From Escherichia phage Barry: DNA of 64,000 bases. Below are positions 3,657-30,204 of the stretch, piece by piece. Within the stretch, counting starts at the first letter, position 1. The number at the start of each line of letters is the position of its first letter. The stretch lies in sequence record LR880803, one strand, 5' to 3'. The position numbers and the translations under genes are program-made. The notes beneath the pieces are model-generated. The model was not told the DNA's origin and ran no database searches. It saw only the letters and a program-made list of their open reading frames with translations.

Positions 3657-4205
3657 ATGAAGAAATTGATTCTAGGTTTGTGCTTAATGTTTACAGCACA
3701 CTTATCTTACGCAGTTGACTGCCCAGAGCTATCAATTAGCCAAAAAGTAAACATGTTAAAAGCTTACCAGTATGGTGAGAATAACATGGGTAAAGGTTGG
3801 GGTATCACTCTAGCTGCTATAGCCTTACAAGAGTCAGAGTTAGGTCTGAAGGTAGAGAATAAAAAGACACATGACTATGGTATTTTCCAGAATCACTTGA
3901 AGACTGTTGTAAAGCGTAACAAAATTAGCCCTAATGTGGCTAAAAAGAAACTCTTAAGAGACTTTGATTATGCTGCGAAGGAAACGCACAAAGAACTTGA
4001 GTTTTGGACAAAGGTGCATGGTCAGCCAAAGTCAAAGAAGACTTTACAAAAAGTTTTAGCATCATATAATGCTGGGTATTCGTACAGAATCCCTAAAGCT
4101 AAGAAATATTCTCAAGATGTTTATAACAATATGAAAGTAATTGCTCAATGTGAATTTGCAACAAACATTTCTAAGGTAAACCATGAAAAAATTAAGAAAG
4201 TCTGA
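3657..4205 (+). CDS. secreted lytic-transglycosylase-like protein (SLT-type motif)
   Basis: N-terminal signal peptide MKKLILGLCLMFTAHLSYA; AIALQESELG and YGIFQ resemble the SLT catalytic Glu/Ser and GLMQ blocks; SD AGGAG upstream. Confidence 0.45.
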   Translation: MKKLILGLCLMFTAHLSYAVDCPELSISQKVNMLKAYQYGENNMGKGWGITLAAIALQESELGLKVENKKTHDYGIFQNHLKTVVKRNKISPNVAKKKLLRDFDYAAKETHKELEFWTKVHGQPKSKKTLQKVLASYNAGYSYRIPKAKKYSQDVYNNMKVIAQCEFATNISKVNHEKIKKV

Positions 4206-4878
4206 TGAAGTATTGTGCCATGCTTATGACTTACATCCTCATGAGTTAGGTCTTGATTCCTGTGTATGGACTCCAGAACAGTGCAGGGATTTTGAAGACA
4301 CCGCAAGAGAAGTTGTATGTTCACTTGAAGATTTCCACACATCAGAACCAATTGTGAACGTTGTGGACAAAAAGACTGGGAAATCCATAGGTGTAAAACA
4401 TGATAGCTTAGTCATAGTCAACAAAGACCTTGTAGAGAAAGGTAATCTTATCTTAGCAGATATTGATGGAGTTCTTACAAATTTTAATCACGAAGATTGT
4501 TCAACGGAATTGACTGACGGTTCATTCTCGCAGTATACCAATCTTCTTGATTCTGTAAGAGCAAAGCCGACGTATGTTTTCAATATCATTGATGCAATTG
4601 CTAATCATGCTGCTGTTGGACTCTTGACAGCGAGAGGCGAATCTCAGAGAATACCTACTGAGATGTTTTTAAGGCATAACACAGAGCATGACTACATGCT
4701 TTTTATGCGTGGTTTTGGGACTAACTCTATAAGTGCAGAAAGTTTGAAAGTGAGGATGATTCAGTCTTGCATTCTGCCTTACTTTAATATAGTATGTTTT
4801 ATAGAAGATACAGAGAAGAATGTGCAGAAGGTGAACAGAATCCTTCCACACATCAAAACCATGTTAGTTAAACATTGA
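4183..4878 (+). CDS. HAD-superfamily-like hydrolase (possible nucleotidase/phosphatase); start uncertain
   Basis: 231-aa ORF; motif LILADIDGVLTN fits HAD motif I DxDG(T/V); overlaps previous gene by 23 nt. Confidence 0.35.
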   Translation: MKKLRKSDEVLCHAYDLHPHELGLDSCVWTPEQCRDFEDTAREVVCSLEDFHTSEPIVNVVDKKTGKSIGVKHDSLVIVNKDLVEKGNLILADIDGVLTNFNHEDCSTELTDGSFSQYTNLLDSVRAKPTYVFNIIDAIANHAAVGLLTARGESQRIPTEMFLRHNTEHDYMLFMRGFGTNSISAESLKVRMIQSCILPYFNIVCFIEDTEKNVQKVNRILPHIKTMLVKH

Positions 4879-4888
4879 GAGAAAACTT

Positions 4889-5353
4889 ATGAACAATATC
4901 ATTACGGTAGCACTGGACGTTACGGCAAACAAATCTGAAGTAGTTCGTAACATTATCAAGAGCAACTTTGAGGGTAAAATCTTCCGTGCTGTCAATGTAA
5001 AAGCAGACGGCAACATCCGAGAGTATCGTGCTCTTTTGAATGTTAAGAAACACGTAAAAGGTTCTGGCTCAACGACAGCACACAAAGAAAACCTGATGAC
5101 CATCTATGATATGGGGATGGCTTCAGAATTAGGTGCTGAAGGTATCGTTAAAGAAGGTGCTCCGTATCGTTCTTTCAATCTGGAAACTGCTCTCATGCTT
5201 TCCTTTACAAGTGGTTCTAAAACAACTACTTATCTCTTTACTGATGCTGCAACGGTATCTGCTATCAAGGATAGCACTGTCAAAGCTGGGGTAGCTGCTG
5301 CTGCAAAAGCTTCTTCGATGGCTGCAAATGTCCTTGCTAAAGTCCTCGGTTAA
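4889..5353 (+). CDS. hypothetical protein
   Basis: 154-aa ORF, SD GAGAGAAAA upstream, followed by a terminator. Confidence 0.5.
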   Translation: MNNIITVALDVTANKSEVVRNIIKSNFEGKIFRAVNVKADGNIREYRALLNVKKHVKGSGSTTAHKENLMTIYDMGMASELGAEGIVKEGAPYRSFNLETALMLSFTSGSKTTTYLFTDAATVSAIKDSTVKAGVAAAAKASSMAANVLAKVLG

Positions 5354-5365
5354 GGTTAAGATACA

Positions 5366-5388
5366 GGCTCCTTCGGGAGCCTTTTTCA
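5366..5388 (+). terminator. rho-independent terminator
   Basis: hairpin GGCTCC-TTCG-GGAGCC followed by TTTTT. Confidence 0.6.
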
Positions 5389-5405
5389 TTTTAGGAGATT
5401 GTTAA

Positions 5406-5753
5406 ATGACATTTAAAGAGTTCTGTCAAGCCACTTTCATAATTGTTTTCTTAGTTGGGGCAGGTGTCTGGGGAGGATACTCTTACAGAGACTATCAAGT
5501 TGCTGAAACTGAGCTAAATAATCAAAAGCTCATAAGTGTTGCTAAAGATGCTTATCAGGAAGGATTAGCCACACTGAGCACCAATTACAAAAATGATTTG
5601 AAAGATGTGCTTGCTAAGAATAAGCATACAAAAGAGGTACTAACATATGAAAAAACTAAGCCAGAGTTTTATAATGTTTGTGTTACTGATAACTATGTCA
5701 GGGTGTTCAACGAACAAAGTGAGCAGTACATTCAAAAACTCCCAAGTAAGTGA
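5406..5753 (+). CDS. i-spanin-like protein (N-terminal TM helix then periplasmic helical region)
   Basis: N-terminal hydrophobic segment FIIVFLVGAGVWGG; its 3' end is overlapped out of frame by a lipoprotein ORF. Confidence 0.4.
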   Translation: MTFKEFCQATFIIVFLVGAGVWGGYSYRDYQVAETELNNQKLISVAKDAYQEGLATLSTNYKNDLKDVLAKNKHTKEVLTYEKTKPEFYNVCVTDNYVRVFNEQSEQYIQKLPSK

Positions 5754-5916
5754 GAGTGATAAGTACACTCAAGAAGAATCACGGTATATCATCAAAGGCA
5801 ACACAGGCAGTGATGTAGCAGCAGCCCTTGAGTTCTATCGTGACGGATTTTACCAGTGCACAATCAAAGCTAATAACCTTATTGACATGATTTTACTAGG
5901 GAATAAGCAGCAATGA
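5647..5916 (+). CDS. o-spanin-like outer-membrane lipoprotein (overlapped architecture)
   Basis: signal peptide with lipobox-like ITMSGC; Cys in C-terminal part; starts inside 5406..5753 in another frame. Confidence 0.4.
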   Translation: MKKLSQSFIMFVLLITMSGCSTNKVSSTFKNSQVSESDKYTQEESRYIIKGNTGSDVAAALEFYRDGFYQCTIKANNLIDMILLGNKQQ

Positions 5917-6182
5917 CAGAGAATCAAGATACTTTCTATGTAGAAGGTTACTTACTGTTACCACGACCAAAAGAAACTTATATGCGAATTGATTTCATAC
6001 CAACCATCATGGATAATGTGATGTGCCATATCTTTATGCAAGGTGTCACAGCACAACTTAAGCATGTTGGCAAAGAGTGCAAAATAAAGGTTGACACTCA
6101 TCCAGAAATCAAAGAAAATCACTACACATGGTTCTTACCAGACTCTAAAGAAATCTTAGCAGTTCTTAAAACGAGGAAGTAA
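5913..6182 (+). CDS. hypothetical protein
   Basis: 89-aa ORF, tightly coupled (start overlaps previous stop). Confidence 0.4.
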   Translation: MTENQDTFYVEGYLLLPRPKETYMRIDFIPTIMDNVMCHIFMQGVTAQLKHVGKECKIKVDTHPEIKENHYTWFLPDSKEILAVLKTRK

Positions 6183-6184
6183 CT

Positions 6185-6508
6185 ATGCAGATTAATGGAA
6201 GAGACTTTGTAGCCGTTTACTACGAGAAAGGTAAAGAAGTTGGCGTAGCACAAGTATCTTATGGCAATGGTAAGTGGCTATATGGAACAATCGCAGTAGT
6301 AGGAACAAGAAGTGATACAAAAACTTTTAAAGATTGTGTTGACCTTCTTGAAGAATCCATCCAGAATCATTGGTGTCTGATATGGATGACTGATAACGAA
6401 GTGATGGAGCGTTTCAAAAAGATTGATATCAACATTGACAGTATTGAGCATGTTGATTTATATGAGCTAACTGAGAAGGTAAACTATGAAAGCTCTAGAG
6501 GTAATTGA
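6185..6508 (+). CDS. hypothetical protein
   Basis: 107-aa ORF, SD GAGGAAG upstream. Confidence 0.4.
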   Translation: MQINGRDFVAVYYEKGKEVGVAQVSYGNGKWLYGTIAVVGTRSDTKTFKDCVDLLEESIQNHWCLIWMTDNEVMERFKKIDINIDSIEHVDLYELTEKVNYESSRGN

Positions 6509-6713
6509 CAAAGATACTGGAGAGGTCACGTCAGCATGTGTTTTTGTGAGTCACGACACAGTGATACCATTTTACAGCCTCGACAGTTTTAGTTTTACAG
6601 GGACAACTCCAGAGGAATACTTTGAAGACCTCACCTTTGCCAGAATCTCTATAGACACATTCTATAAATGCTTCTATGATGAAGGTAAAGAATTACGAGA
6701 AACTGAACTATAA
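6486..6713 (+). CDS. hypothetical protein
   Basis: 75-aa ORF, overlaps previous by 23 nt. Confidence 0.35.
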   Translation: MKALEVIDKDTGEVTSACVFVSHDTVIPFYSLDSFSFTGTTPEEYFEDLTFARISIDTFYKCFYDEGKELRETEL

Positions 6714-6725
6714 GGTATATATTAT

Positions 6726-6926
6726 ATGGCTGACTTCTGCAAAGACTGTTCTATCGAAATGTTCGGACGTGATACAGGTGACTTAAAAGGTCTTATCACT
6801 GAAGATGATTTTAAAGCTGGCTATGCAATGCCAGTAATCTGTGAAGGTTGTGGGTGCATCTGGGTAGACCATGAGGGGCAACGTGTAAAACCTTCAGAAG
6901 ATAAAGAATCTTGGGAGAGATGTTAA
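6726..6926 (+). CDS. small zinc-ribbon protein
   Basis: 66 aa with CxxC ... CxGCGC cysteine pairs. Confidence 0.4.
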   Translation: MADFCKDCSIEMFGRDTGDLKGLITEDDFKAGYAMPVICEGCGCIWVDHEGQRVKPSEDKESWERC

Positions 6927-7712
6927 ATGGGTATTGTAAAAATCATCAATGGCGATATCTTTGCCGCATTTGATAAAGGTAAGTTTGACATCATTGGTCA
7001 CGGTTGCAACTGTATGAATTTAATGGGTGCAGGTATCGCTGACAAGATTTCTAAACTTTACCCAAAAGCATATGAGACCGATACAGAAGTTTATCTATAT
7101 GCAGATGGTATAGGCCACAAACCCTGTGAAAATTTACTGGGTAATTTCTCTGTAGCACGTTTAAAACAAGGTCGAATAGCTAACCTTTACACTCAGCTTA
7201 AGACTGGTAAAGATGCCCGATACAGTGCTTTAGAATCATCTTTGAAACAGCTTAACAGATACTGTGAAGTTAACCAGTTGAAGAAAGTTGGTCTACCTAT
7301 GATTGGTGCAGGTATCGGTGGGCTAGACCCTCAAGCCGTCACAGTTATCATTAATCAGGTGATGAAGAGTGTAGATGTGTATCTGTATGTCTATGAAGGA
7401 GAGATGTACCACAAGTTACGCTCAGGTTGGAAGAACTACTGTGAACCAGAATACTTTGCAGGTGTAGTAACGTTCACAGACAATACAGTTACCCTCTTCA
7501 GACGAAGAAAAGGTAAGATACATCAAAGTAACCCTCCGGTTGAAAAGATGTCTCTGAGTAACGCTCTAGTTACCCACCTGTCGAAGAGCAATCACAGAAT
7601 TGCAGTAACATTTGGCAGTGATGCAGATACTTATATCTATGCAAGGACTGATGAGGGTATTGAGTTAATCTTCTCTTCACCAGAGCTTACCTTCTTAGAC
7701 GCAAAGAACTAA
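6927..7712 (+). CDS. macro-domain-like protein (putative ADP-ribose binding/processing) with extra C-terminal domain
   Basis: N-terminal INGDIF ... FDIIGHGCNCMNLMGAGIADKI resembles the macro domain GDIT ... DAIVNAAN..LxGGGGV block; motif-level only. Confidence 0.4.
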   Translation: MGIVKIINGDIFAAFDKGKFDIIGHGCNCMNLMGAGIADKISKLYPKAYETDTEVYLYADGIGHKPCENLLGNFSVARLKQGRIANLYTQLKTGKDARYSALESSLKQLNRYCEVNQLKKVGLPMIGAGIGGLDPQAVTVIINQVMKSVDVYLYVYEGEMYHKLRSGWKNYCEPEYFAGVVTFTDNTVTLFRRRKGKIHQSNPPVEKMSLSNALVTHLSKSNHRIAVTFGSDADTYIYARTDEGIELIFSSPELTFLDAKN

Positions 7713-7785
7713 GAAATTTCGTAGTATATTCACAATAGACTAAGCCTTTCTTATCTGGTAAATTTTTCAGGTAAGGAGGGCTTTT

Positions 7786-7966
7786 TCATTTCAGATTTGT
7801 GCAGGTAGAGTTCTGTAGAGAAATCTGTAGAGAGAATTTTAAACTCCAAAGAGAAAATTCATTTTCAAACTGTGCAGGTAATCTCCAAAGAGCTTTTTCA
7901 TTTTCAAAACGTGCAGACCCCGCTCAGGTCGGGCAAGAAAAATCATTTTAGAATTGTGCAGGTAGG
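7786..7966 (+). repeat. four direct copies of a ~24-bp motif (consensus TTTCATTTTCAAAnnGTGCAGGTA) in a 500-bp non-coding region
   Basis: copies near 7789, 7856, 7895 and 7941; CTGTAGAGA also occurs twice between them. Confidence 0.6.
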
Positions 7967-8140
7967 TGGGTGTAGGTGGGGCTGTCGCCATTTCTCACAA
8001 GGCTACCACATCTGAAAATAAAAGTCAACAGAAAAATTTGTAGCGGATTGAAAAATAATTCTTGATTGTAGTTCTGTTTTGTGGTAGTCGCGCGCACCCG
8101 TTTCATTACAATTTTTGCAAAAATATTTTTAAAATTCCTA

Positions 8141-8169
8141 TTGACTCTTTGAGTATGGTTATCTAATAT
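8141..8169 (+). promoter_or_regulatory. sigma70-like promoter upstream of the small-gene array
   Basis: TTGACT - 17 bp - TAATAT. Confidence 0.5.
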
Positions 8170-8219
8170 TTGCATCAGACGGGCAATCAAGCCCACTTCC
8201 TAAACTGGAGAATCTAAAA

Positions 8220-8426
8220 ATGCTTTACAGTCGCGAATTGATGGTTACAACTAACATTAACACAAAGGCAAAACGTTTTTACATGCAAATCTGTGGCGTA
8301 TGGTCCAGAATATCAGAAGCTGACTATTGCAACTATGTAGAAACGGCTATTAATTCGAATTGCTACCTTACAAGAAACACTAAGAAGTTTACAAGACAGA
8401 CAGCAATTTACTACTACGATAAATAA
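8220..8426 (+). CDS. hypothetical small protein
   Basis: 68-aa ORF with leader CTAAACTGGAGAATCTAAAAATG. Confidence 0.4.
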   Translation: MLYSRELMVTTNINTKAKRFYMQICGVWSRISEADYCNYVETAINSNCYLTRNTKKFTRQTAIYYYDK

Positions 8427-8512
8427 AGTACTTTACAAGGGGCTTATAGTTCGATAAAGTAAGCCCCAGATAAAGAGCTTTACTAACTAACCTTAAACTA
8501 GGAGATTCAAAA
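8426..8512 (+). repeat. leader cassette family A, copy 1 (hairpin GGGGCTTA...TAAGCCCC + SD)
   Basis: GTACTTTACAAGGGGCTTATAGTTCGATAAAGTAAGCCCCAGATAAAGAGCTTTAC...GGAGATTCAAAAATG; embedded TTTACA-17-TAAAGT. Confidence 0.7.
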
Positions 8513-8896
8513 ATGGCTTATCGTGCACCGAAATTCATCAACAAAGACAACTTTCGCAAAGTACTGGAGAAGTCACTTGATGAGAATTTTAAAGGCAATA
8601 TTATTGTTGTTCACGCATTCAATTTTAAGTATGATGTAAACGGGAATAGAATCAACCATTACACGGCAACCATGTTAGATGGTACACTATCAAGTGAAAA
8701 AGCCGTACTGAATGCACTAGCAGGACGCGGAAAAGTATTAGTAAGATGCGATAAGCGACGTTATCAGGGTGGCGCATATGGTTATGATGATGCTGTTTAT
8801 CATCTTGAAAATATGGGCTATAAAGTAGAAAAAGCTGGAGTATCGCAAATCATCGGGAGCGATGGTTATGTAACAATCTTCAAAATTAACGAATAA
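8513..8896 (+). CDS. hypothetical protein
   Basis: 127-aa ORF directly after cassette A. Confidence 0.5.
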   Translation: MAYRAPKFINKDNFRKVLEKSLDENFKGNIIVVHAFNFKYDVNGNRINHYTATMLDGTLSSEKAVLNALAGRGKVLVRCDKRRYQGGAYGYDDAVYHLENMGYKVEKAGVSQIIGSDGYVTIFKINE

Positions 8897-8982
8897 AGTA
8901 CTTTACAAGGGGCTTATAGTTCGATAAAGTAAGCCCCAGATAAAGAGCTTTACCACTAAATCCTAAATTGGAGAACTTAAAA
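8896..8982 (+). repeat. leader cassette family A, copy 2
   Basis: near-identical to copy 1. Confidence 0.7.
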
Positions 8983-9276
8983 ATGGCTATTATCAAAAAC
9001 GTTGTAATTGCTGCAAAAACTCGTGATGACGCTCGCGTTATGGCTAAAAAGTTATGCGGGAAAGTGGTTGACAATGGGAAAAAATCTGCTGTAAGATGGG
9101 GCGTAAAGGTTGATAAACAGTTGAAGTTAAAAAATTCACCGATAAACCTTTTTACATGTGTAAACACTATCGGGAAGACAAATGTATACACGAAAAAGGC
9201 ATACATTAGACGCGTAGCATTAACATCCCCCATTCGTACAATGAGAAGTTATGCAAAGCTGAAAAATAACCGATAA
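8983..9276 (+). CDS. hypothetical protein (MAIIKN...)
   Basis: ATG at 8983 follows the cassette SD; track ORF 8968 begins at an in-frame TTG inside the cassette. Confidence 0.5.
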   Translation: MAIIKNVVIAAKTRDDARVMAKKLCGKVVDNGKKSAVRWGVKVDKQLKLKNSPINLFTCVNTIGKTNVYTKKAYIRRVALTSPIRTMRSYAKLKNNR

Positions 9277-9363
9277 AGTACTTTACAAGGGGCTTAAAAG
9301 TTGATATCTTAAGCCCCAGATAAAGAGCTTTACCACTAAATCCTTAAACTAGGAGACTCAAAA
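9276..9363 (+). repeat. leader cassette family A, copy 3 (variant loop, stem preserved)
   Basis: GGGGCTTAA-aagttgatatc-TTAAGCCCC, a compensated 9-bp stem. Confidence 0.7.
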
Positions 9364-9660
9364 ATGAAATTATCGAATAAAGTTCGTGAAAATCTAAGCA
9401 AGTTACTCAACAAAATTGATTTTATCGAGACATCAAGAAATAATCATGATGTTATGGAATGGTTGCACGGCAAAATAAAAGGCCGTCGCGTAGTGATTTG
9501 CTTATGGAATAGTTGCAGGGAGTATAAAAAACCTGTATTGCAAGTAAATATTTATGATGATACTTTTAAAAGTCCAGTAAAGTCTAAAAGTGACTTATTA
9601 GAATCCTATGAGATAACTGTAAATGGCAAAGTATCACGTAAAGAGGAAACACCATGTTAA
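9364..9660 (+). CDS. hypothetical protein
   Basis: 98-aa ORF after cassette SD. Confidence 0.5.
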   Translation: MKLSNKVRENLSKLLNKIDFIETSRNNHDVMEWLHGKIKGRRVVICLWNSCREYKKPVLQVNIYDDTFKSPVKSKSDLLESYEITVNGKVSRKEETPC

Positions 9661-24949: not shown

Positions 24950-25026
24950 CTCTGTTTAGCTCAGATTGGTAGAGCGTTCCGTTTGGGGCGGTAAGGCCGG
25001 AGGTTCAAGTCCTCCAACAGAGACCA
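24950..25026 (+). tRNA. tRNA, anticodon read as TGG (Pro)
   Basis: acceptor CTCTGTT/AACAGAG, T-arm GGAGG-TTCAAGT-CCTCC, CCA encoded. Confidence 0.6.
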
Positions 25027-25033
25027 AATTAAT

Positions 25034-25111
25034 GTTCCAGTAGACAAAATGGTATAGTCACCACTCTTTCAAAGTGGATATCTGAGGGTTCAAATCCCTT
25101 CTGGAACGCCA
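25034..25111 (+). tRNA. tRNA, anticodon TTC (Glu)
   Basis: acceptor GTTCCAG/CTGGAAC, anticodon stem CCACT/AGTGG loop CTTTCAA, CCA encoded. Confidence 0.65.
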
Positions 25112-25203
25112 GTTTTGACAGAAGACCAATTACAGCAAACTTAATCTTATTCATCTGAAGGTAAATCGGACAAAGAAGAGATTTGGTCTGGTCATTAAGA
25201 ATT

Positions 25204-25279
25204 GCGGGTATAGAGAAAGGGCGTCTCACATGTCTCATTAGCATGGTATCGGCAGGTTCGACTCCTGCACCCGCCTCCA
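25204..25279 (+). tRNA. tRNA-like, anticodon CAT (Met/Ile2 type); boundaries approximate
   Basis: T-arm GCAGG-TTCGACT-CCTGC, anticodon stem CATGT/GCATG loop CTCATTA; acceptor pairing imperfect. Confidence 0.45.
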
Positions 25280-25357
25280 ATTTTGCAGAAGACCGTATTC
25301 AGCAACAAAATACTTTTTTGCGGATAAAAGAAAAAACACGGTCTGGCAATGTATTAA

Positions 25358-25434
25358 GGTTAGGAAGCACATAAGGTATGTGCGGTCGCCTGTTAAGCGA
25401 ATGGCACAGGGTTCGAATCCCTGACTAACCGCCA
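25358..25434 (+). tRNA. tRNA, anticodon GTT (Asn)
   Basis: acceptor GGTTAGG/ACTAACC, T-arm CAGGG-TTCGAAT-CCCTG, CCA encoded. Confidence 0.6.
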
Positions 25435-25442
25435 AATTAAAT

Positions 25443-25530
25443 GTGTCGTTATCCCGTAGATGGTAGCGGTGGGGACTGTAAATCCCTTGTCATTGAGACT
25501 CGGTAGGTTCGACTCCTACACGGCACACCA
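25443..25530 (+). tRNA. class II tRNA (long variable arm), anticodon GTA (Tyr)
   Basis: 88 nt; acceptor GTGTCGT/ACGGCAC; T-arm GTAGG-TTCGACT-CCTAC; loop CTGTAAA. Confidence 0.65.
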
Positions 25531-25535
25531 ATAAA

Positions 25536-25612
25536 GGCTATGTAGTTTAACTGGAGAAAATACTCCCCTGTCACGGGAGATGATGTGAGTTCAAGTCTCA
25601 TCGTAGCCGCCA
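25536..25612 (+). tRNA. tRNA, anticodon GTC (Asp)
   Basis: acceptor GGCTATG/CGTAGCC, anticodon stem CTCCC/GGGAG loop CTGTCAC. Confidence 0.65.
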
Positions 25613-25634
25613 ATTTTGAGAGGGCTATTTAGCC

Positions 25635-25672
25635 CCTCCCTTAAAGAGTTCTTACGAGTATTCTTTAAGGGA
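25635..25672 (+). ncRNA. 12-bp perfect hairpin between tRNAs (possible processing signal or small RNA)
   Basis: CTCCCTTAAAGA-gttcttacgagtat-TCTTTAAGGGAG. Confidence 0.35.
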
Positions 25673-26042
25673 GCAGAAGACCAAATACAGCAAGAATGTA
25701 TGAAATTTCAAGCCAATTTAATTTTGAAAATTTAAAACTTGGTCTGGCTCAACAAATTTACAGAAGGCCGTTTACAGCAAAACTTAAACAATCTATTTCT
25801 CCGGTACAGAAAAGGCGAAGGTTCGATTCCTTCACTCGGCAGATGTCGAGTTGGTGTAATGGTAGCACTTAAGATGATAAACAACGGTCTGGTAATTACC
25901 TTTGTAGATAAGTTATTAAGCTTACTTGTGAGTATGCGACCACAAAGGGTGAATGGGTAAATTCTAGATTTAAACCCAAAAAAGGCACATCGCTACAGAC
26001 CTTAAGCAAGTCTGGGTAGCTTATCTACAAAGATAATTTAAT

Positions 26043-26118
26043 GGAAGTGTAGCAGAATGGTGATGCGGCAGACTTTTAATCTGACAGGCGATGGGTTCGA
26101 ATCCCTCCACTTCTACCA
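26043..26118 (+). tRNA. tRNA, anticodon TTT (Lys); weak T-stem
   Basis: acceptor GGAAGTG/CACTTCT, loop CTTTTAA, T-loop TTCGAAT, CCA encoded. Confidence 0.5.
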
Positions 26119-26122
26119 ATAT

Positions 26123-26199
26123 GGTTCAGTCGCAGATAAGGTAATGCAAGGGTCTCATAAGCCCTATGAATGTGGGTTCGATTCCCATCTGAACCTCCA
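26123..26199 (+). tRNA. tRNA, anticodon CAT (Met/fMet/Ile2 type)
   Basis: acceptor GGTTCAG/CTGAACC, loop CTCATAA, T-loop TTCGATT. Confidence 0.6.
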
Positions 26200-26200
26200 A

Positions 26201-26276
26201 GCTGGTATAGTTAAGAAGGTTATAACACTCCCCTGATAAGGGAACATCGGTGGTTCGATTCCACCTACCAGTACCA
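26201..26276 (+). tRNA. tRNA, anticodon GAT (Ile)
   Basis: acceptor GCTGGTA/TACCAGT, T-arm GGTGG-TTCGATT-CCACC, loop CTGATAA. Confidence 0.6.
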
Positions 26277-26290
26277 ATTTCAATAAAGTT

Positions 26291-26319
26291 GTTGACATTG
26301 AGATGTGACTACTTTATAG
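26291..26319 (+). promoter_or_regulatory. internal sigma70-like promoter in the tRNA island
   Basis: TTGACA - 17 bp - TATAGT. Confidence 0.5.
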
Positions 26320-26522
26320 TAACCTTAGTTTTCGTTGCGTAGCGTCTATTTTGCAAATTTAAAATAAATGCAAACGACAATGTTTTTCTGGCAGTAGCTT
26401 GATAGGCTAAACACCAGTGAGGTCTTCCAATCCCTCATCAAAGAATTTGGCGTACTCGCCCACGGTATGATTAATAAGGTGGGCATCTTTAAGGGCTTTC
26501 TAAGAGAGTCTTTAAAGATAAT

Positions 26523-26599
26523 GCACCCTTAGTTCAATTGGATAGAGCAACGGTCTTCTAAATCGTTAGTTACAGGTTCGAATCCTGTAGGGTGTACCA
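26523..26599 (+). tRNA. tRNA, anticodon TCT (Arg)
   Basis: acceptor GCACCCT/AGGGTGT, D-arm GTTCAATTGGATAGAGC, T-arm ACAGG-TTCGAAT-CCTGT. Confidence 0.65.
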
Positions 26600-26742
26600 A
26601 ATAGTTAGCAGATTACTTAGACGGCCTTAGCGGGTCTTCCTGTAGGGAGGTGGTCTGTATCTCATGTTTTCCAGAACATGTAAATAATCTGAGAAGAAGC
26701 TTGACAGTGTTGAGATAATACGGTAAGCTTCGAATTATAGTA

Positions 26743-26820
26743 TGGGACGATGTTAAGACTCTAAGGCATGAGCAACGGCCTCCAAAACCGTTTCAAAGGG
26801 GTTCAACTCCTCCGTCCCAT
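26743..26820 (+). tRNA. tRNA, anticodon CCA (Trp); CCA not encoded
   Basis: acceptor TGGGACG/CGTCCCA, loop CTCCAAA, T-loop TTCAACT. Confidence 0.55.
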
Positions 26821-26837
26821 GCTAAAGATTGTTTCGG

Positions 26838-26924
26838 AGAGAGTGGCGGTCAACGGAGACCAACCAGCCTTGAAAACTGGTGCTGCTGGAAACGGTACGG
26901 GTTCAACTCCTGCACTCTCTGCCA
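26838..26924 (+). tRNA. class II tRNA, anticodon TGA (Ser)
   Basis: 87 nt; acceptor AGAGAGT/ACTCTCT; loop CTTGAAA; long variable arm. Confidence 0.6.
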
Positions 26925-26948
26925 AAATAATTTTTAAGGTGGTGATTA

Positions 26949-27289
26949 TGAAGAAAGGTTCAGTAGGTGAAATTGCTACACAATTAGCTTTCCTCAAAAG
27001 AGGTTATGAAGTATATTCACCAGCTACAGATAATGCAAAGTATGACTTTCTAGTTCACAAAGATGGTTTGATTGAAACTGTTGAGGTAAAATCAACATCA
27101 GTCAAAAGAGGTGAACTTTGGAGAGTGCAACTGAAAAGAGTTCGTTCTAACAAGAATGAAAATAGAATAATGAATTTTGATAACTCTCAAGTTGATTACT
27201 TAGCTGTTTACATTGAACCACTTGATAAAGTCGTCATCTACAAAGCTAAAGATGTCAAGTCTAAGACTGAACTTAGCTTAAAGATTTAA
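26949..27289 (+). CDS. small PD-(D/E)xK-type nuclease-like protein embedded in the tRNA island (Hjc/resolvase-like motif order)
   Basis: ATG at 26949 behind strong SD AAGGTGGTGA; GEIATQLAFLKRGYEV ... YDFLV ... VEVKS matches the E...D...E-x-K arrangement; track ORF 26768..27289 upstream part overlaps tRNAs and is not coding. Confidence 0.45.
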
Positions 27290-27530
27290 AGCCAAGCTTC
27301 ATTCGGATGTCGCTTTGGTATCCCTCGTGTATTGTCGTACACTGTCAAAGCACCTAGTAGGTGTCACGGAGAAGAGATAATATCAAGCTCTCCAAAGGTT
27401 CTAGTCACCGGATTAAACAAGACTATGCAAAGACCTATTTAGGTCTTTTTAGAGGGCTTCTAAGGTTATTAGTCGCTTGTTGTGGAACCTTGTTGCTCAG
27501 GTTCTTAGAAGTTCTCTAAAAAGATTTAAT

Positions 27531-27607
27531 GCACCTATAGCCCAACTGGTAGAGGCAGCAGACTTAGAATCTGCTCAGTGTGAGTTCGAATCTCTCTAGG
27601 TGTACCA
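27531..27607 (+). tRNA. tRNA, anticodon read as TAG, short variable arm (identity uncertain)
   Basis: acceptor GCACCTA/TAGGTGT, anticodon stem GCAGA/TCTGC loop CTTAGAA, T-loop TTCGAAT. Confidence 0.5.
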
Positions 27608-27614
27608 AATTAAT

Positions 27615-27690
27615 GCAGGTGTAGCAAAATGGTTATGCGGCTGACTCTTAATCAGTAAGACGATGGGTTCAATTCCCTCCACCTGTACCA
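27615..27690 (+). tRNA. tRNA, anticodon read as CTT (Lys), paralog of 26043..26118
   Basis: acceptor GCAGGTG/CACCTGT, loop CTCTTAA. Confidence 0.5.
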
Positions 27691-27696
27691 AACAAT

Positions 27697-27772
27697 GGGG
27701 TCATAGTTTATATGGTTAAAATTCGAGTTTTGCAAACTTGGGAACTGAGTTCAATTCTCAGTGACTCCACCA
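27697..27772 (+). tRNA. tRNA, anticodon tentatively TGC (Ala)
   Basis: acceptor GGGGTCA/TGACTCC, T-arm CTGAG-TTCAATT-CTCAG. Confidence 0.5.
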
Positions 27773-27778
27773 ATTAGT

Positions 27779-27853
27779 GCATCCATAGTTTAAACGGGAA
27801 AATTACAGTCTTCCAAACTGAGGTTGAGGGTTCGATTCCCTCTGGATGCTCCA
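27779..27853 (+). tRNA. tRNA, anticodon TCC (Gly)
   Basis: acceptor GCATCCA/TGGATGC, T-arm GAGGG-TTCGATT-CCCTC, loop CTTCCAA. Confidence 0.6.
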
Positions 27854-27860
27854 AATTAAT

Positions 27861-27935
27861 GCTCCTATCGTATAATTGGTTATTACGGTTGCCTTGTAAG
27901 CAACTTATCAGGGTTCGAGTCCTTGTGGGAGCACC
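27861..27935 (+). tRNA. tRNA, anticodon TGT (Thr)
   Basis: acceptor GCTCCTA/TGGGAGC, anticodon stem GTTGC/GCAAC loop CTTGTAA. Confidence 0.65.
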
Positions 27936-27939
27936 AATT

Positions 27940-28028
27940 CAGAGGTCAAGTGAAAGACCGCTTTGAGTCAACTGAAGACCGTAACAAATTCCACGAAGTT
28001 GAGTTAGCGGCACAACTTCAGACCTCTT
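27940..28028 (+). ncRNA. structured inter-tRNA spacer (candidate small stable RNA or processing element)
   Basis: long-range complement CAGAGGTC ... GACCTCT enclosing inner hairpin GAAGTTG...CAACTTC. Confidence 0.3.
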
Positions 28029-28032
28029 TCAT

Positions 28033-28107
28033 ACTCGCTTAGTTTATATGGTAAAACATCACCCTTACAAGATGAAGAAAAAGGTTCAAGTCCTTTAGTG
28101 AGTACCA
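28033..28107 (+). tRNA. tRNA, anticodon TAC (Val)
   Basis: acceptor ACTCGCT/AGTGAGT, D-stem GTTT/AAAC, T-arm AAAGG-TTCAAGT-CCTTT, loop CTTACAA. Confidence 0.55.
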
Positions 28108-28108
28108 T

Positions 28109-28186
28109 GTTCCAGTATCCCAATTGGCAGAGGATGCAAGCTCAAACCTTGTATTAGTGACGGTTCGAATCCGTCTTGGAACACCA
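28109..28186 (+). tRNA. tRNA, anticodon read as CAA, short variable arm (identity uncertain)
   Basis: acceptor GTTCCAG/TTGGAAC, T-arm GACGG-TTCGAAT-CCGTC. Confidence 0.5.
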
Positions 28187-28191
28187 ATTTT

Positions 28192-28267
28192 GCAGGATTA
28201 GTTCAAATGGATAGAGCAACAGTCTACGAAGCTGTTAATAGGGGTTCGAATCCCTTATCCTGCGCCA
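28192..28267 (+). tRNA. tRNA, anticodon ACG (Arg)
   Basis: acceptor GCAGGAT/ATCCTGC, D-arm GTTCAAATGGATAGAGC, loop CTACGAA. Confidence 0.65.
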
Positions 28268-28286
28268 ATTTAAAGAGGCTATTTAG

Positions 28287-28844
28287 ATGAGATATTTGAA
28301 GTATGCTTCATGGATTTTCTTAGCTTTGTTAGAGCCATTTGCAGCAATCTTAGCAGTTATCTTAGCACCTTTTGTAGTTCCATTCTACAGTGAGAAGAAA
28401 GGACACTTACCTTTCGGGTTCAGATGGATGGAGACATATGACAACCCAATTGATGGTGATGAAGGTCACGTTAAAAGATGGGCTAATATTAGATGGATTG
28501 GTAAACTAGGTGTCTACATGCAAAGAGTCGGATGGCTCTGGAGAAACAAAGCTTATAACTTCTCTTACCATGTATTAGGAAGAGATGTAAGAGATGTTAC
28601 TAAGTGGAAAGGTAATATCAACGTAAGTTCTGACCCCGAAGATAATCAGACAGGTTATCTCCTAATGTGGAACAGTAATGCTTGGGGATTATTCGCTTTT
28701 ATCCCATCAATTAAAATCTTTGGTAAACAATTTTACTGGAGAATTTATATTGGATGGAAACTAAAAAGTGTTGTCCCAGAAGAAAGAGCATTCTCAAGGG
28801 AAAGAGTTATGTTGGCATTCTTTATTCATCCACTGAGAAAGTAA
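28287..28844 (+). CDS. hypothetical Trp-rich membrane protein embedded in the tRNA island
   Basis: 185 aa; SD AAAGAGG; N-terminal hydrophobic segment FLALLEPFAAILAVILAPFVVPF. Confidence 0.45.
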   Translation: MRYLKYASWIFLALLEPFAAILAVILAPFVVPFYSEKKGHLPFGFRWMETYDNPIDGDEGHVKRWANIRWIGKLGVYMQRVGWLWRNKAYNFSYHVLGRDVRDVTKWKGNINVSSDPEDNQTGYLLMWNSNAWGLFAFIPSIKIFGKQFYWRIYIGWKLKSVVPEERAFSRERVMLAFFIHPLRK

Positions 28845-28852
28845 AGATTTAA

Positions 28853-28928
28853 AGGGGATTAGTTTACAAGGTTAAAACCTCGGTCTTTGAAATCGAAGAA
28901 GTTGGTTCAATTCCAACATCCCCCGCCA
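28853..28928 (+). tRNA. tRNA, anticodon TTG (Gln); 1:72 mismatch
   Basis: T-arm GTTGG-TTCAATT-CCAAC, D-stem GTTT/AAAC, loop CTTTGAA. Confidence 0.55.
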
Positions 28929-28930
28929 AT

Positions 28931-29009
28931 GCTCCATTACTCCAATTGGCAGAGAGGCCAGACTTAAAATCTGTGTTATGTATCGGTTCGAATCCGATAT
29001 GGAGTACCA
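28931..29009 (+). tRNA. tRNA, anticodon read as TAA (identity uncertain)
   Basis: acceptor GCTCCAT/ATGGAGT, T-arm ATCGG-TTCGAAT-CCGAT, loop CTTAAAA. Confidence 0.5.
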
Positions 29010-29014
29010 AATTT

Positions 29015-29090
29015 AGCGGTATAGCATAACTGGCAATGCAGCAGCCTCTGAAGCTGTCCTATTAAGGTTCAAATCCTTATGCCGCTGCCA
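29015..29090 (+). tRNA. tRNA, anticodon CTG (Gln)
   Basis: acceptor AGCGGTA/TGCCGCT, D-stem GCAT/ATGC, loop CTCTGAA. Confidence 0.55.
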
Positions 29091-29121
29091 CTTCTAAGGA
29101 TTCTTGCGAGAGTCCTTAAAT

Positions 29122-29197
29122 GTGGCCTTATCATAAACGGTAATGACCCATGCTGTGAACATGGTCTATACGGGTTCAAATCCCGTAGGTCACCCCA
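29122..29197 (+). tRNA. tRNA, anticodon GTG (His)
   Basis: acceptor GTGGCCT/AGGTCAC, anticodon stem CCATG/CATGG loop CTGTGAA, T-arm ACGGG-TTCAAAT-CCCGT. Confidence 0.6.
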
Positions 29198-29203
29198 ATT
29201 TAT

Positions 29204-29279
29204 AGTCCAAGTAGCTTATATGGTTAAAGCGCGTGTCTGAAAAACATGAGAAGAGGGTTCAAATCCCACTGGACTACCA
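29204..29279 (+). tRNA. tRNA, anticodon GAA (Phe)
   Basis: D-stem GCTT/AAGC, loop CTGAAAA, T-loop TTCAAAT, CCA encoded; boundaries approximate. Confidence 0.55.
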
Positions 29280-29296
29280 ATTTCAAAGGTGCTTAA

Positions 29297-30030
29297 TGAA
29301 AGAGATGACAGAACAAGGTAAGGAGATTTTTAATCTCTTAAAAACTGGTAAAGGGTTCTCTAACCCGCTTATTACTGGTGCAGCAGTTCTCGGTGGAACC
29401 GTAGCTGCTTCTACATCACTTGTAAGCTCTATTAGTTCTGTAACAGACCCTACAATGAAGGAGAAACTTGTTGCTGCTGGACTTACAACAGTCCTTCTAA
29501 ACAGCTTTACAACAAGCCTTACAAGCACTACAGCAACTACTAAAACTCTGACAGACTACGGTCAAAAATCTATTGATGAGTTTTCATCACGTATGCAGGT
29601 AGCAAAGGGGTATTCCAATGTTATGGGTGCAGCAGGAGAACAAGTTGGTTGTACACCATTCAGTGGTATCATGGGTGTTGCTACAGAGTATGGTCAAAAA
29701 GCTATTGACATGATGAACAGTACACTAGATAGTGTTAATGGTGTGTTAAGTGACTTACAAGATGCTATTGATAAGGGTCTTGATACTGTTTCTGATTTAG
29801 CTAACCAAGCTGTCAGTAAGATTAATGAAGGTATTTCAAAGATTACAGCTTATGCAGATGAAGTTGTGCAGATGATTGAAGAAGAAGCTGCCCTTATTGC
29901 AGAGTACCTTAAAACGAATATCAATGGGTTCTTAGCAGGTATCTTACCAGACTGGTTTGACGATGCTTGTAAAACTGGTGTGATTGACACTATTGCAACA
30001 CCAGAAATGAAGAGCGCATTACAGAAATAA
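29297..30030 (+). CDS. hypothetical Ser/Thr/Ala-rich protein
   Basis: ATG at 29297 (MKEMTEQG...); track ORF start 29233 lies inside the preceding tRNA. Confidence 0.45.
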
Positions 30031-30031
30031 T

Positions 30032-30124
30032 GGAAGATTAACCCTAAAAGGTAAGGGAGCAGTTTGCTAAACTGCCAGTAGCTGAGAAATCGGTGTACCA
30101 GTTCAAGTCTGGTATCTTCCTCCA
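30032..30124 (+). tRNA. class II tRNA, anticodon GCT (Ser)
   Basis: 93 nt; acceptor GGAAGAT/ATCTTCC; anticodon stem GCAGT/ACTGC loop TTGCTAA; T-arm ACCAG-TTCAAGT-CTGGT. Confidence 0.65.
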
Positions 30125-30128
30125 ATTT

Positions 30129-30204
30129 GAATCCGTGACAGAAATGGATATGTGCCTGTCTGCAAAACAGGTTTATAAGGGTTCGAGTCCCTTCGGATTC
30201 TCCA
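30129..30204 (+). tRNA. tRNA, anticodon GCA (Cys)
   Basis: acceptor GAATCCG/CGGATTC, anticodon stem CCTGT/ACAGG loop CTGCAAA, T-arm AAGGG-TTCGAGT-CCCTT. Confidence 0.65.

What the first reader, a model, noticed from the sequence alone, without database searches (positions are those of the whole stretch)
6927..7712. Macro-domain-like protein among the early genes
Seen: N-terminal INGDIF...FDIIGHGCNCMNLMGAGIADKI parallels the macro-domain GDIT...DAIVNAAN..LxGGGGV nucleotide-binding block, followed by ~110 extra residues. Established: macro domains bind or hydrolyse ADP-ribose derivatives. Inference: possible counter to ADP-ribosylation-based or NAD-derived-signal host immunity, or a role in NAD salvage.
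Basis: partly seen in the sequence, partly recalled or inferred. Interest (0 to 1): 0.45.

Follow-up and report, generated by a model that had tools for sequence, protein, structure and literature searches.

The report
Felix O1 macrodomain, likely anti-DarT enzyme
This Felix O1-type phage gene encodes a genuine macrodomain (ADP-ribose-removing) enzyme related to phage T4's recently named anti-DarT factor AdfM, so it most likely strips ADP-ribose off phage DNA to escape the bacterial DarTG2 defence, and it carries an extra C-terminal module of unknown function that characterised relatives lack.

Summary
Window 6927..7712 (+) is a 261-aa ORF. Residues 1-156 are a macrodomain (Pfam PF01661 above its cut-off; AlphaFold pLDDT 91.7; Foldseek TM 0.83-0.87 to TARG1 and DarG). 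Residues 157-261 are an extra, confidently folded β-rich module.

The window is a Felix O1-like phage. The gene is Felix O1 ORF13, annotated "phosphatase" or "macro domain protein" in over 200 phage records.

The macrodomain is 35% identical (E=4e-25) over its full length to T4 Tk.4, also called AdfM. A knockout of that gene sensitises T4 to DarTG2.

The active site is the Gln type. Family-invariant H25, N28, Q90, G127 and G129 match the residues required in Streptomyces SCO6735, a proven thymidine-ADP-ribose DNA hydrolase. It lacks the lysine of DarG, TARG1 and PhiKZ AdfM.

Best explanation (about 0.55, inferred by homology): a DNA de-ADP-ribosylase that counters DarT2-type defence.

Verdict: a new architectural variant of a known kind, of modest interest.

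The parts
6914..6917 (+). Shine-Dalgarno-like GGAG, six intervening bases before the start codon. The upstream 66-aa ORF's stop codon (TAA, 6924-6926) directly abuts the ATG.
   Evidence: Read directly from the sequence and the ORF list.
6927..7712 (+). Complete coding sequence, 261 aa plus stop. Ortholog of Felix O1 ORF13 (NP_944801, annotated 'phosphatase').
   Evidence: ORF; 96.4% nucleotide identity to Felix O1 7130..7915, with matches in 205 phage records. PHROG 335, E=4.7e-111 over the full length.
6927..7394 (+). Macrodomain, residues 1-156, belonging to the T4 Tk.4/AdfM lineage.
   Evidence: Pfam and PDB sequence matches; 35% identity to T4 Tk.4, E=4e-25; confident model with TM 0.83-0.87 to TARG1 and DarG.
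6999..7010 (+). H25-G-C-N28 motif. N28 is the conserved macrodomain asparagine, equivalent to SCO6735 N27 and PhiKZ AdfM N23. H25 is equivalent to SCO6735 H24 and TARG1 H32.
   Evidence: H25 and N28 are invariant in 24 and 27 family sequences. Aligned. Roles taken from PMC9411070 and PMC13309987.
7023..7040 (+). Loop 1, M33-G-A-G-I-A38, the glycine-rich loop that binds the distal ribose and phosphate.
   Evidence: M33, G36 and A38 are invariant. The loop aligns with MGAGIA of TARG1 and MGKGIA of DarG.
7182..7196 (+). N86-L-Y-T-Q90 motif. Q90 occupies the column of the catalytic lysine of TARG1 (K84) and DarG (K80), which is the position of the essential Gln85 of SCO6735.
   Evidence: N86, L87, T89 and Q90 are invariant across the family, T4 Tk.4 included. 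The Gln85 role comes from PMC9411070.
7296..7322 (+). Loop 2, P124-M-I-G-A-G-I-G-G132, the phosphate-binding loop. G131 sits where TARG1 has its catalytic D125.
   Evidence: P124, G127 and G129 are invariant.
7395..7427 (+). Connecting helix, residues 157-167.
   Evidence: DSSP on the model gives helix 158-167.
7428..7709 (+). C-terminal module, residues 168-261, with six β-strands and one short helix. It has no known relative and is found only fused to this macrodomain clade.
7742..7793 (+). Terminator-like hairpin (17 pairs) followed by a T-rich tail, 30 nt after the stop codon. It probably ends this transcription unit.
   Evidence: This is a consensus scan only; function was not shown.

Best explanation
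The gene encodes a two-domain counter-defence enzyme.

The N-terminal macrodomain (residues 1-156) binds the ADP-ribose that a host DarT2-type toxin attaches to thymidines in single-stranded phage DNA. It hydrolyses the ribose-base bond and so restores a replicable template.

Catalysis would follow the Gln-type mechanism described for SCO6735. In that mechanism Q90, held in place by N28, positions the distal ribose and a water network. This differs from the lysine mechanism of DarG and TARG1.

The gene sits in the rIIA/rIIB/PNKP-side block, which is presumed to be early, so the enzyme could be present before replication starts.

The C-terminal module (residues 168-261) is an accessory domain specific to Felix O1-like phages and of unknown role.

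Shown here: fold, family, active-site residues, homology to T4 Tk.4/AdfM, distribution and architecture. Inferred: the substrate (dT-ADP-ribose on DNA), the target system (DarTG2) and the expression timing.
For: 1. It is a macrodomain by sequence and by fold.
2. It is homologous over its full length to T4 Tk.4 (35% identity, E=4e-25) and falls in the same PHROG 335. The tk.4 gene was the single HIDEN-SEQ hit under DarTG2, and a clean knockout sensitises T4 to DarTG2 (bioRxiv 10.1101/2025.11.20.689424).
3. The only subfamily models that match in NCBIfam and PADLOC are DarG (47.8 bits and E=2.8e-13). That score is higher than T4 Tk.4 itself reaches (30.3 bits).
4. Family-invariant H25, N28, Q90, G127 and G129 correspond to SCO6735 H24, N27, Q85, G126 and G128. 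SCO6735 Q85A is inactive, N27S is nearly inactive and G128E has much reduced activity. The enzyme cleaves dT-ADP-ribose on DNA and rescues DarT toxicity (PMC9411070). The family profile hits SCO6735 (5e3b) at 8e-15.
5. A more distant phage macrodomain in the same PHROG, PhiKZ gp104, removes DarT2-made ADP-ribose from DNA in vitro (PMC13309987).
6. The gene is nearly universal in the clade (242 records with the fusion against about 253 with a terminase ≥90% identical). Its position is syntenic even in relatives at 32-35% overall identity. That pattern indicates sustained selection.
Against: - No experiment on this protein or any Felix O1-like ortholog was found.
- The link rests on 35% identity to T4 Tk.4. 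The Tk.4 evidence is genetic and comes from a preprint; hydrolysis by Tk.4 itself was inferred, not shown.
- Macrodomains of this Poa1p/TARG1-like group also act on proteins, on O-acetyl-ADP-ribose and on ADP-ribose-1''-phosphate, so substrate cannot be read from sequence.
- SCO6735's DNA-positioning K34 is A35 here (MGAGIA).
- The equivalence to SCO6735 residues is transitive, through TARG1, DarG and the paper's statement. The direct alignment to 5e3b was not displayed.
- The protein scores far below the DarG equivalog cut-off (47.8 against 250 bits).
Confidence: 0.55

Rival explanations
1. The protein is an ADP-ribosyl hydrolase acting on a substrate other than DarT2-modified DNA. Candidates are ADP-ribosylated host or phage proteins, ADP-ribosylated RNA (as made by CmdT-type defence toxins), or DNA modified by another ADP-ribosyltransferase. 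The C-terminal module would supply the target specificity.
For: - SCO6735 and TARG1 also de-modify proteins.
- The fast-evolving, lineage-specific C-module could redirect the enzyme to a different target than single-domain T4 AdfM.
- Identity to Tk.4 is only 35%.
Against: No ADP-ribosyltransferase gene was noticed nearby in the annotated Felix O1 record. The only experimentally linked phenotypes for members of this PHROG are anti-DarT2.
Confidence: 0.22
2. The protein is a small-molecule enzyme, as the database label 'phosphatase' implies. It would be an ADP-ribose-1''-phosphate phosphatase (Poa1p-like) or an O-acetyl-ADP-ribose deacetylase. It might feed free ADP-ribose into the phage's NAD salvage, or clear a by-product of 2'-phosphotransferase-type RNA repair.
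For: - The family profile matches yeast Poa1p (6lfu 2.5e-14; Foldseek TM 0.76-0.77).
- From my own recollection of the Poa1p sequence, not verified with a tool, the H-x-C-N-C motif resembles Poa1p's.
- Felix O1 encodes nadV and a prs-like gene.
- A PNKP-like gene lies about 2 kb upstream (window 4183..4878), and this arrangement is kept in distant relatives.
- One relative, P0026, fuses this macro clade to a 'cyclic-phosphate processing receiver' domain.
- In Vibrio phage K460 the macro gene adjoins a ribose-phosphate pyrophosphokinase gene (H141).
Against: - Appr-1''-p phosphatase activity is a common in-vitro side activity of macrodomains (general knowledge).
- No Tpt1/KptA-type 2'-phosphotransferase was seen in the annotation.
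- The NAD genes are not adjacent.
- T4-type PNKP repair does not generate Appr>p (established knowledge of the T4 Pnkp/Rnl1 pathway).
- The T4 homolog's only known phenotype is DarTG2 resistance.
Confidence: 0.13
3. The protein neutralises a toxin mainly by binding rather than by catalysis. It would act as an antitoxin mimic that sequesters DarT2 or another host protein, and the macrodomain would serve mostly as a binding surface.
For: - Catalytically dead SCO6735, DarG and TARG1 still inhibit DarT by interaction.
- ICP1 AdfB is reported to act through direct interaction.
- DarG2 has a second, DarT2-binding domain, and this protein has an extra, fast-evolving module.
Against: Every residue needed for catalysis is invariant across the family, including the single-domain members. 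That argues that enzyme activity is under selection. The C-module shows no similarity to the DarG C-terminal domain.
Confidence: 0.1

Closest known systems
T4 Tk.4 = AdfM (anti-DarT factor, macrodomain), bioRxiv 10.1101/2025.11.20.689424
   Same: 35% identity over the whole 155-aa protein (E=4e-25). Same PHROG 335. Same motifs: HGCNC, MG(A/S)G(I/V)A, NLYTQ and P-x-IGAGIG. Both come from virulent enterobacterial myophages.
   Different: T4 Tk.4 is a single domain. This protein adds a helix and a module of about 95 aa (residues 157-261) that T4-like phages lack. The genomic neighbourhood also differs: T4 has tk.4 beside vs, while here the gene lies downstream of rIIB and PNKP.
Streptomyces coelicolor SCO6735 (PDB 5e3b), a Gln-type ALC1-like macrodomain and thymidine-ADP-ribose DNA hydrolase (PMC9411070)
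   Same: Gln occupies the DarG-K80/TARG1-K84 position, with conserved His, Asn and two loop glycines. The profile match is E=8e-15.
   Different: SCO6735 is a bacterial chromosomal single-domain protein. Its K34 has no equivalent here (A35). The glycine after the Gln sits at +4 here and at +2 in SCO6735. SCO6735 has no C-terminal module.
DarG2 antitoxin (Thermus 5m31/5m3e, M. tuberculosis 5m3i; NCBIfam NF048014)
   Same: Closest named subfamily model. Foldseek TM 0.76-0.83. Both have a two-domain layout with an N-terminal macrodomain and a C-terminal accessory domain.
   Different: DarG2's catalytic Lys is replaced by Gln. The score is 47.8 bits against a 250-bit cut-off, and only the macro part of the model matches. 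The C-terminal domains are unrelated. There is no adjacent darT gene.
PhiKZ gp104 AdfM (PMC13309987)
   Same: A phage macrodomain in the same PHROG. It is biochemically shown to remove DarT2 ADP-ribose from DNA, and its conserved Asn (N23) aligns with N28 here.
   Different: Only 23% identity (E=3e-4). It is a true DarG-type macrodomain with Lys (FPTK; E=9e-25 to M. tuberculosis DarG; 137.8 bits on the DarG model). It is single-domain and is imported into the phage nucleus.
Human TARG1/OARD1 (4j5r/4j5s) and yeast Poa1p (6lfq)
   Same: These are the best sequence and structure matches in the PDB. The ADP-ribose-binding loops are shared.
   Different: The TARG1 K84/D125 dyad is Q90/G131 here. 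Poa1p's best-scoring profile stretch covers only the N-terminal ~117 positions. Those enzymes act on protein-linked ADP-ribose or small molecules in eukaryotes.

Membership tests
Macro domain (Pfam PF01661) | Sequence match to the family model above the curated threshold | tested here: met
   32.4 bits against a gathering cut-off of 22, E=1e-7, profile positions 2-117 of 118.
Macro domain (Pfam PF01661) | Three-layer α/β/α macro fold | tested here: met
   AF2 model with pLDDT 91.7. Foldseek against the PDB gives 237 hits at E≤1e-3; the 50 hits listed were macrodomain structures or designed proteins built on one. TARG1 gives TM 0.83-0.87 and DarG 0.83.
Macro domain (Pfam PF01661) | Two glycine-rich ADP-ribose-binding loops and the conserved Asn | tested here: met
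   MGAGIA (33-38), IGAGIGG (126-132) and N28 are invariant or nearly invariant and align to the same loops in TARG1 and DarG.
Macro domain (Pfam PF01661) | Binds ADP-ribose | not testable with these tools
   Needs ITC, a thermal-shift assay or a co-crystal.
AdfM, T4 Tk.4 type | Homology to T4 Tk.4 over the whole domain | tested here: met
   35% identity, E=4e-25, residues 3-157 against 1-151. Same PHROG 335.
AdfM, T4 Tk.4 type | Single-domain protein of about 155 aa | tested here: not met
   261 aa with an added C-terminal module.
AdfM, T4 Tk.4 type | Required for phage growth on DarTG2-carrying hosts | not testable with these tools
   Needs plaque assays of a deletion mutant. No such data for Felix O1-like phages were found in the literature library.
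AdfM, T4 Tk.4 type | Removes DarT2-made ADP-ribose from DNA | not testable with these tools
   Shown only for PhiKZ gp104 and for bacterial SCO6735. For T4 Tk.4 it was inferred.
DarG2 antitoxin (NCBIfam NF048014) | Full-length equivalog score (≥250 bits) | tested here: not met
   47.8 bits, and only profile positions 4-153 of 338 match. PADLOC DarG matches positions 18-146 of 329.
DarG2 antitoxin (NCBIfam NF048014) | Catalytic lysine (Thermus K80) | tested here: not met
   Q90 occupies that column.
DarG2 antitoxin (NCBIfam NF048014) | C-terminal DarT-binding domain | tested here: not met
DarG2 antitoxin (NCBIfam NF048014) | Encoded next to a darT toxin gene | tested here: not met
   The neighbours are small phage ORFs with no Pfam match.
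TARG1/OARD1 | Lys84/Asp125 catalytic dyad | tested here: not met
   Q90 and G131 occupy those columns.
SCO6735-type (Gln) ALC1-like macrodomain | Gln at the K80/K84-equivalent position, with the conserved Asn and His and the two loop glycines | tested here: met
   H25, N28, Q90, G127 and G129 are invariant. Equivalence to SCO6735 H24, N27, Q85, G126 and G128 is by transitivity, through the TARG1 and DarG alignments and the paper's own statement. The profile hit to 5e3b is E=8e-15. The direct residue alignment to 5e3b was not displayed.
SCO6735-type (Gln) ALC1-like macrodomain | DNA-positioning lysines K34 and K89 | tested here: inconclusive
   By spacing, the K34 equivalent is A35. K92 and K95 lie near Q90 in Felix-type sequences but are not conserved across the family.
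Poa1p-like ADP-ribose-1''-phosphate phosphatase | Poa1p catalytic and binding residues (H23, S30 and F152, as named in PDB entry titles) and phosphatase activity | not tested
   The profile matches 6lfu at 2.5e-14, with the best-scoring stretch covering profile positions 1-117, and Foldseek TM is 0.76-0.77. The residue alignment was not displayed, and the Poa1p paper is not in the library. The activity needs an assay.

The most novel reading that the evidence does not exclude
The C-terminal module (residues 168-261) is a new toxin-recognition or target-recognition domain with no known relative. It would make the Felix O1 protein a complete two-mode 'orphan antitoxin': the macrodomain erases ADP-ribose from DNA, while the fast-evolving module binds and blocks DarT2 (or another host ADP-ribosyltransferase), or tethers the enzyme to the replisome. 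That would be a convergent analogue of DarG2's second domain, invented independently in phages.
Probability: 0.2. Interest if true: 0.55.

Novelty: new variant of a known kind. Interest (0 to 1): 0.35.

Why it matters
DarTG systems block phage DNA replication by ADP-ribosylating DNA. Phage-encoded erasers (AdfN, AdfM) were described only in 2025-2026, and only for T4-like phages and chimalliviruses.

If this assignment holds, three things follow. The whole Felix O1/Moogle group would carry a near-core anti-DarT2 gene; this group includes widely used Salmonella and E. coli typing and biocontrol phages. The 'phosphatase' label in over 200 GenBank records would be misleading. The Gln-type mechanism known from one Streptomyces enzyme would turn out to be the common version in phages, since the macrodomain matches 2,819 phage records.

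The conserved orphan C-terminal module is a concrete handle for asking how phage erasers acquire specificity or a second mode of toxin neutralisation.

Tried and rejected
- **Exhaustive profile search with the C-module.** About 65 weak multi-stretch hits turned out to be PQQ/BamB-type β-propeller blades. I treat this as a β-hairpin sequence-pattern resemblance, not homology. P0033 (114 aa) looked like a standalone C-module, but it starts inside the macrodomain's last strand, so it is a truncated gene call.
- **Conserved partner gene.** The abutting upstream 66-aa CxxC…CxxC ORF is not robustly conserved in distant relatives. None of the six neighbouring ORFs has a Pfam match.
- **NAD-salvage linkage.** The NAD genes exist in Felix O1 but are far from this gene.
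- **Generic DNA-binding role for the C-module.** I consider this unlikely, because its net charge ranges from −5 to +4 across the family.
- **RNA elements around the gene.** No Rfam match reached significance in 5000-9500.
- **Domain interface.** It could not be analysed because model coordinates are not exposed (one search lists /data). Only pTM 0.89 suggests a fixed arrangement of the two domains.
- **Direct residue alignment to SCO6735 (5e3b) and Poa1p.** It could not be displayed, because five TARG1 sequence variants fill the alignment slots. Baiting with PhiKZ AdfM and with DarG retrieved the DarG sequences but not 5e3b.

Full report
**1. What is there**

Window 6927..7712 (+) is an ATG-started ORF of 261 aa. 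It has a GGAG ribosome-binding motif at 6914-6917, and its ATG directly follows the stop codon of a 66-aa upstream ORF.

The window is a Felix O1-like myophage. The gene matches 205 phage records by megablast, almost all of them Felixounavirus. It is 98.6% identical to phage LinBro and 96.4% identical to Felix O1 positions 7130..7915 (ORF13, NP_944801). Those records label it 'phosphatase', 'putative phosphatase', 'macro domain protein', 'O-acetyl-ADP-ribose deacetylase' or 'hypothetical protein'.

**2. The macrodomain is real**

- Pfam Macro (PF01661) matches above its curated threshold: 32.4 bits against 22, E=1e-7, nearly the whole model.
- The protein is a full-length member of PHROG 335 (E=4.7e-111).
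- A profile of 24 family members matches solved macrodomains: TARG1 at 2e-17, M. tuberculosis DarG at 1.3e-16, S. coelicolor SCO6735 at 8e-15, yeast Poa1p at 2.5e-14 and Thermus DarG at 6.7e-14.
- An AlphaFold2 model built on 27 homologs is confident throughout (mean pLDDT 91.7, pTM 0.89). Foldseek places residues 1-156 on TARG1 (target TM 0.83-0.87), Thermus DarG (0.83), BT1257 (0.82) and Poa1p (0.76-0.77).

It is not met.

**3. Which macrodomain**

The only subfamily models that respond are DarG, in NCBIfam (47.8 bits) and in PADLOC (E=2.8e-13). Both matches cover only the macro half of the model and fall far below the equivalog cut-off of 250 bits.

The Felix O1 record's own note ('17.5 kDa protein in tk-vs intergenic region') points to T4 Tk.4. 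I fetched that gene and compared it directly. The result is 35% identity over the whole T4 protein, E=4e-25, and Tk.4 falls in the same PHROG.

Tk.4 was recently renamed AdfM. In a T4 transposon library it was the single gene depleted on a DarTG2 host, and a clean knockout sensitised T4 to DarTG2. Enzymatic removal of ADP-ribose was inferred there, not shown (bioRxiv 10.1101/2025.11.20.689424).

A second group gave the same name to PhiKZ gp104, which does remove DarT2-made ADP-ribose from an oligonucleotide in vitro; its N23A mutant has reduced activity (PMC13309987). PhiKZ gp104 is a different lineage. It is a DarG-type macrodomain (E=9e-25 to M. tuberculosis DarG; 137.8 bits on the DarG model) and only 23% identical to the protein studied here.

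**4. Active site**

Across 24 and 27 family members the invariant residues are H25, G26, N28, C29, M33, G36, A38, P46, G72, N86, L87, T89, Q90, P124, G127 and G129.

In the alignments with TARG1, both DarGs and PhiKZ AdfM:

| Residue here | Aligns with |
|---|---|
| Q90 | Catalytic lysine: TARG1 K84, DarG K80, PhiKZ 'FPTK' |
| G131 | TARG1 D125 |
| N28 | Conserved macrodomain Asn: PhiKZ N23, TARG1 S35 |

So the protein is neither a DarG-type nor a TARG1-type catalyst.

The precedent for this active site is SCO6735. It has Gln85 at exactly that position. Q85A and Q85E are inactive, N27S is nearly inactive and G128E has much reduced activity. The enzyme hydrolyses thymidine-linked ADP-ribose on DNA, rescues DarT toxicity, and also inhibits DarT by interaction (PMC9411070).

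H25, N28, Q90, G127 and G129 map onto SCO6735 H24, N27, Q85, G126 and G128, with the same H-x-x-N spacing. SCO6735's DNA-positioning K34 is not conserved (A35 here). T4 Tk.4 carries the same NLYTQ motif. The genetically validated T4 AdfM is therefore also a Gln-type enzyme.

**5. The extra C-terminal module**

Residues 157-261 form a helix (158-167), six β-strands and a short helix. Block-mean pLDDT is 85-94 across residues 161-260 in the full-length model, and the β-core reaches 82-89 when the module is modelled alone.

The module has no detectable relative:
- It has no Pfam match.
- The only Foldseek hit among viral predicted structures is its own ortholog in phage SUSP2.
- An exhaustive profile search of 1.84 billion representative proteins finds it only in the same macro-fusion family. 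The other hits there are weak matches to PQQ-type β-propeller blades, which I regard as a sequence-pattern coincidence.
- It does not match the C-terminal DarT-binding half of the DarG profiles.

Among deposited phages the fusion occurs in 242 records, nearly all of them phages of Escherichia, Salmonella, Shigella and Citrobacter, i.e. Felix O1-, Moogle- and SUSP-like phages. About 253 records carry a terminase ≥90% identical to this one. The fusion is therefore close to a core gene of that clade.

More distant two-domain relatives (32-41% overall identity) keep the same rIIB … PNKP-like … macro synteny. T4-like and other phages have the macrodomain only. The macrodomain alone matches 2,819 phage records.

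The module diverges roughly twice as fast as the macrodomain:

| Relatives | Macrodomain identity | C-module identity |
|---|---|---|
| Closer group (63-69% overall identity) | 76-81% | 44-53% |
| Distant two-domain relatives | 38-53% | 16-24% |

Its net charge varies from −5 to +4. That argues against a generic nucleic-acid-binding role. It is compatible with a rapidly co-evolving protein-protein interface, or with weak constraint.

**6. Context**

The gene lies at the end of a co-directional block: rIIA, rIIB, a PNKP-like gene (window 4183..4878) and several small ORFs without family matches. A terminator-like hairpin follows at 7742-7783, and then about 500 nt with no convincing ORF.

Felix O1 carries NAD-salvage genes (nadV, a prs-like gene, 'NAD synthetase') at 71-85 kb, which is not adjacent. 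No Rfam family matches near the gene.

**7. Interpretation**

The best-supported mechanism is a Gln-type DNA ADP-ribosylglycohydrolase. It would remove DarT2-made ADP-ribose from thymidines in phage single-stranded DNA and so allow replication in hosts carrying DarTG2.

The fold, the residues, the homology, the distribution and the architecture are shown. The substrate and the target system are inferred from a 35%-identical genetically characterised homolog and from a biochemically characterised enzyme with the same active-site type. I put this at about 0.55.

The rivals are:
- another ADP-ribosylated substrate (0.22);
- small-molecule 'phosphatase' or deacetylase activity, possibly linked to NAD or RNA-repair metabolism (0.13);
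- neutralisation mainly by binding (0.10).

No publication in the searchable library links DarTG to Felix O1-like phages.

**8. Novelty and score**

The macrodomain identity is already in public annotation, and phage anti-DarT macrodomains are now a known kind. What is not described is the two-domain architecture with an orphan, clade-specific, fast-evolving C-terminal module. The protein also belongs to the Gln-type lineage, not the DarG-type lineage.

I rate it a new variant of a known kind, with interest 0.35. The most novel reading not excluded is that the C-module is an independently invented toxin-binding or targeting domain. I give that a probability of about 0.2 and an interest of 0.55 if true.

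Noticed in passing
window 24950-30204: A cluster of 26 tRNA genes on the + strand. The annotated Felix O1 record lists 22. The extras here include a second tRNA-Met(cat), tRNA-Arg(tct), tRNA-Ser(tga) and tRNA-Ser(gct).
   Followed up: no
window 7713-8219: About 500 nt after the macro gene has no convincing ORF; it is also unannotated in Felix O1 between ORF13 and ORF15. It starts with a 17-pair terminator-like hairpin (7742-7783) and ends with a promoter-like TTGACT-17-TAATAT (8141-8169) ahead of the ORF at 8220. There is no significant Rfam match.
   Followed up: partly
window 6726-6926: A 66-aa ORF with a CxxC…CxxC zinc-ribbon-like pattern whose stop codon abuts the macro start codon. A 63-aa ORF with a similar cysteine pattern overlaps the macro start in distant relative L005, but the corresponding ORF in L004 is unrelated. 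It has no Pfam match.
   Followed up: partly
window 4183-4878; L004 3565-4227; L005 3675-4361: A PNKP-like (HAD phosphatase / polynucleotide kinase) gene sits 2-2.5 kb upstream of the macro gene. The rIIB … PNKP-like … macro order is conserved even in relatives at 32-35% overall identity.
   Followed up: no
protein P0026 (339 aa, metagenomic): A member of the same macro clade (NLYTQ, IGAGIGG) is fused to a different C-terminal domain, Pfam PF20274 'cyclic-phosphate processing receiver domain'. This clade has therefore acquired accessory domains more than once.
   Followed up: no
literature: T4 Tk.4 (L002 4923-5390, − strand) versus PhiKZ gp104: Two groups gave the name 'AdfM' to two distinct macrodomain lineages: Gln-type T4 Tk.4 (NLYTQ) and Lys-type, DarG-like PhiKZ gp104 (FPTK). 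PHROG 335 lumps both together.
   Followed up: yes
hit H141, Vibrio phage K460 (OZ196711) 83767-84186: In this phage the homologous macro gene lies next to a gene annotated as ribose-phosphate pyrophosphokinase. This could hint at a link to NAD/ADP-ribose recycling in some lineages.
   Followed up: no
Felix O1 NC_005282 70861-71361, 82324-83205, 83723-85504 (L006): The Felix O1 type carries 'NAD synthetase', a ribose-phosphate pyrophosphokinase-like gene and nadV (nicotinamide phosphoribosyltransferase). This is a likely NAD-reconstitution counter-defence set that is separate from the macro gene. It lies beyond the part of the Felix O1 genome that the window appears to correspond to.
   Followed up: no
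window 7440-7530 (residues ~172-201): The first β-hairpins of the C-module (EPEYFAGVVTFTDNTVTLFRRRKGKIHQS) give weak, repeated matches to blades of PQQ/BamB-type β-propellers (pattern sPavvdGvvyvgs.dg.vyAl…tGk..Ws). This is probably pattern convergence, not homology.
   Followed up: partly
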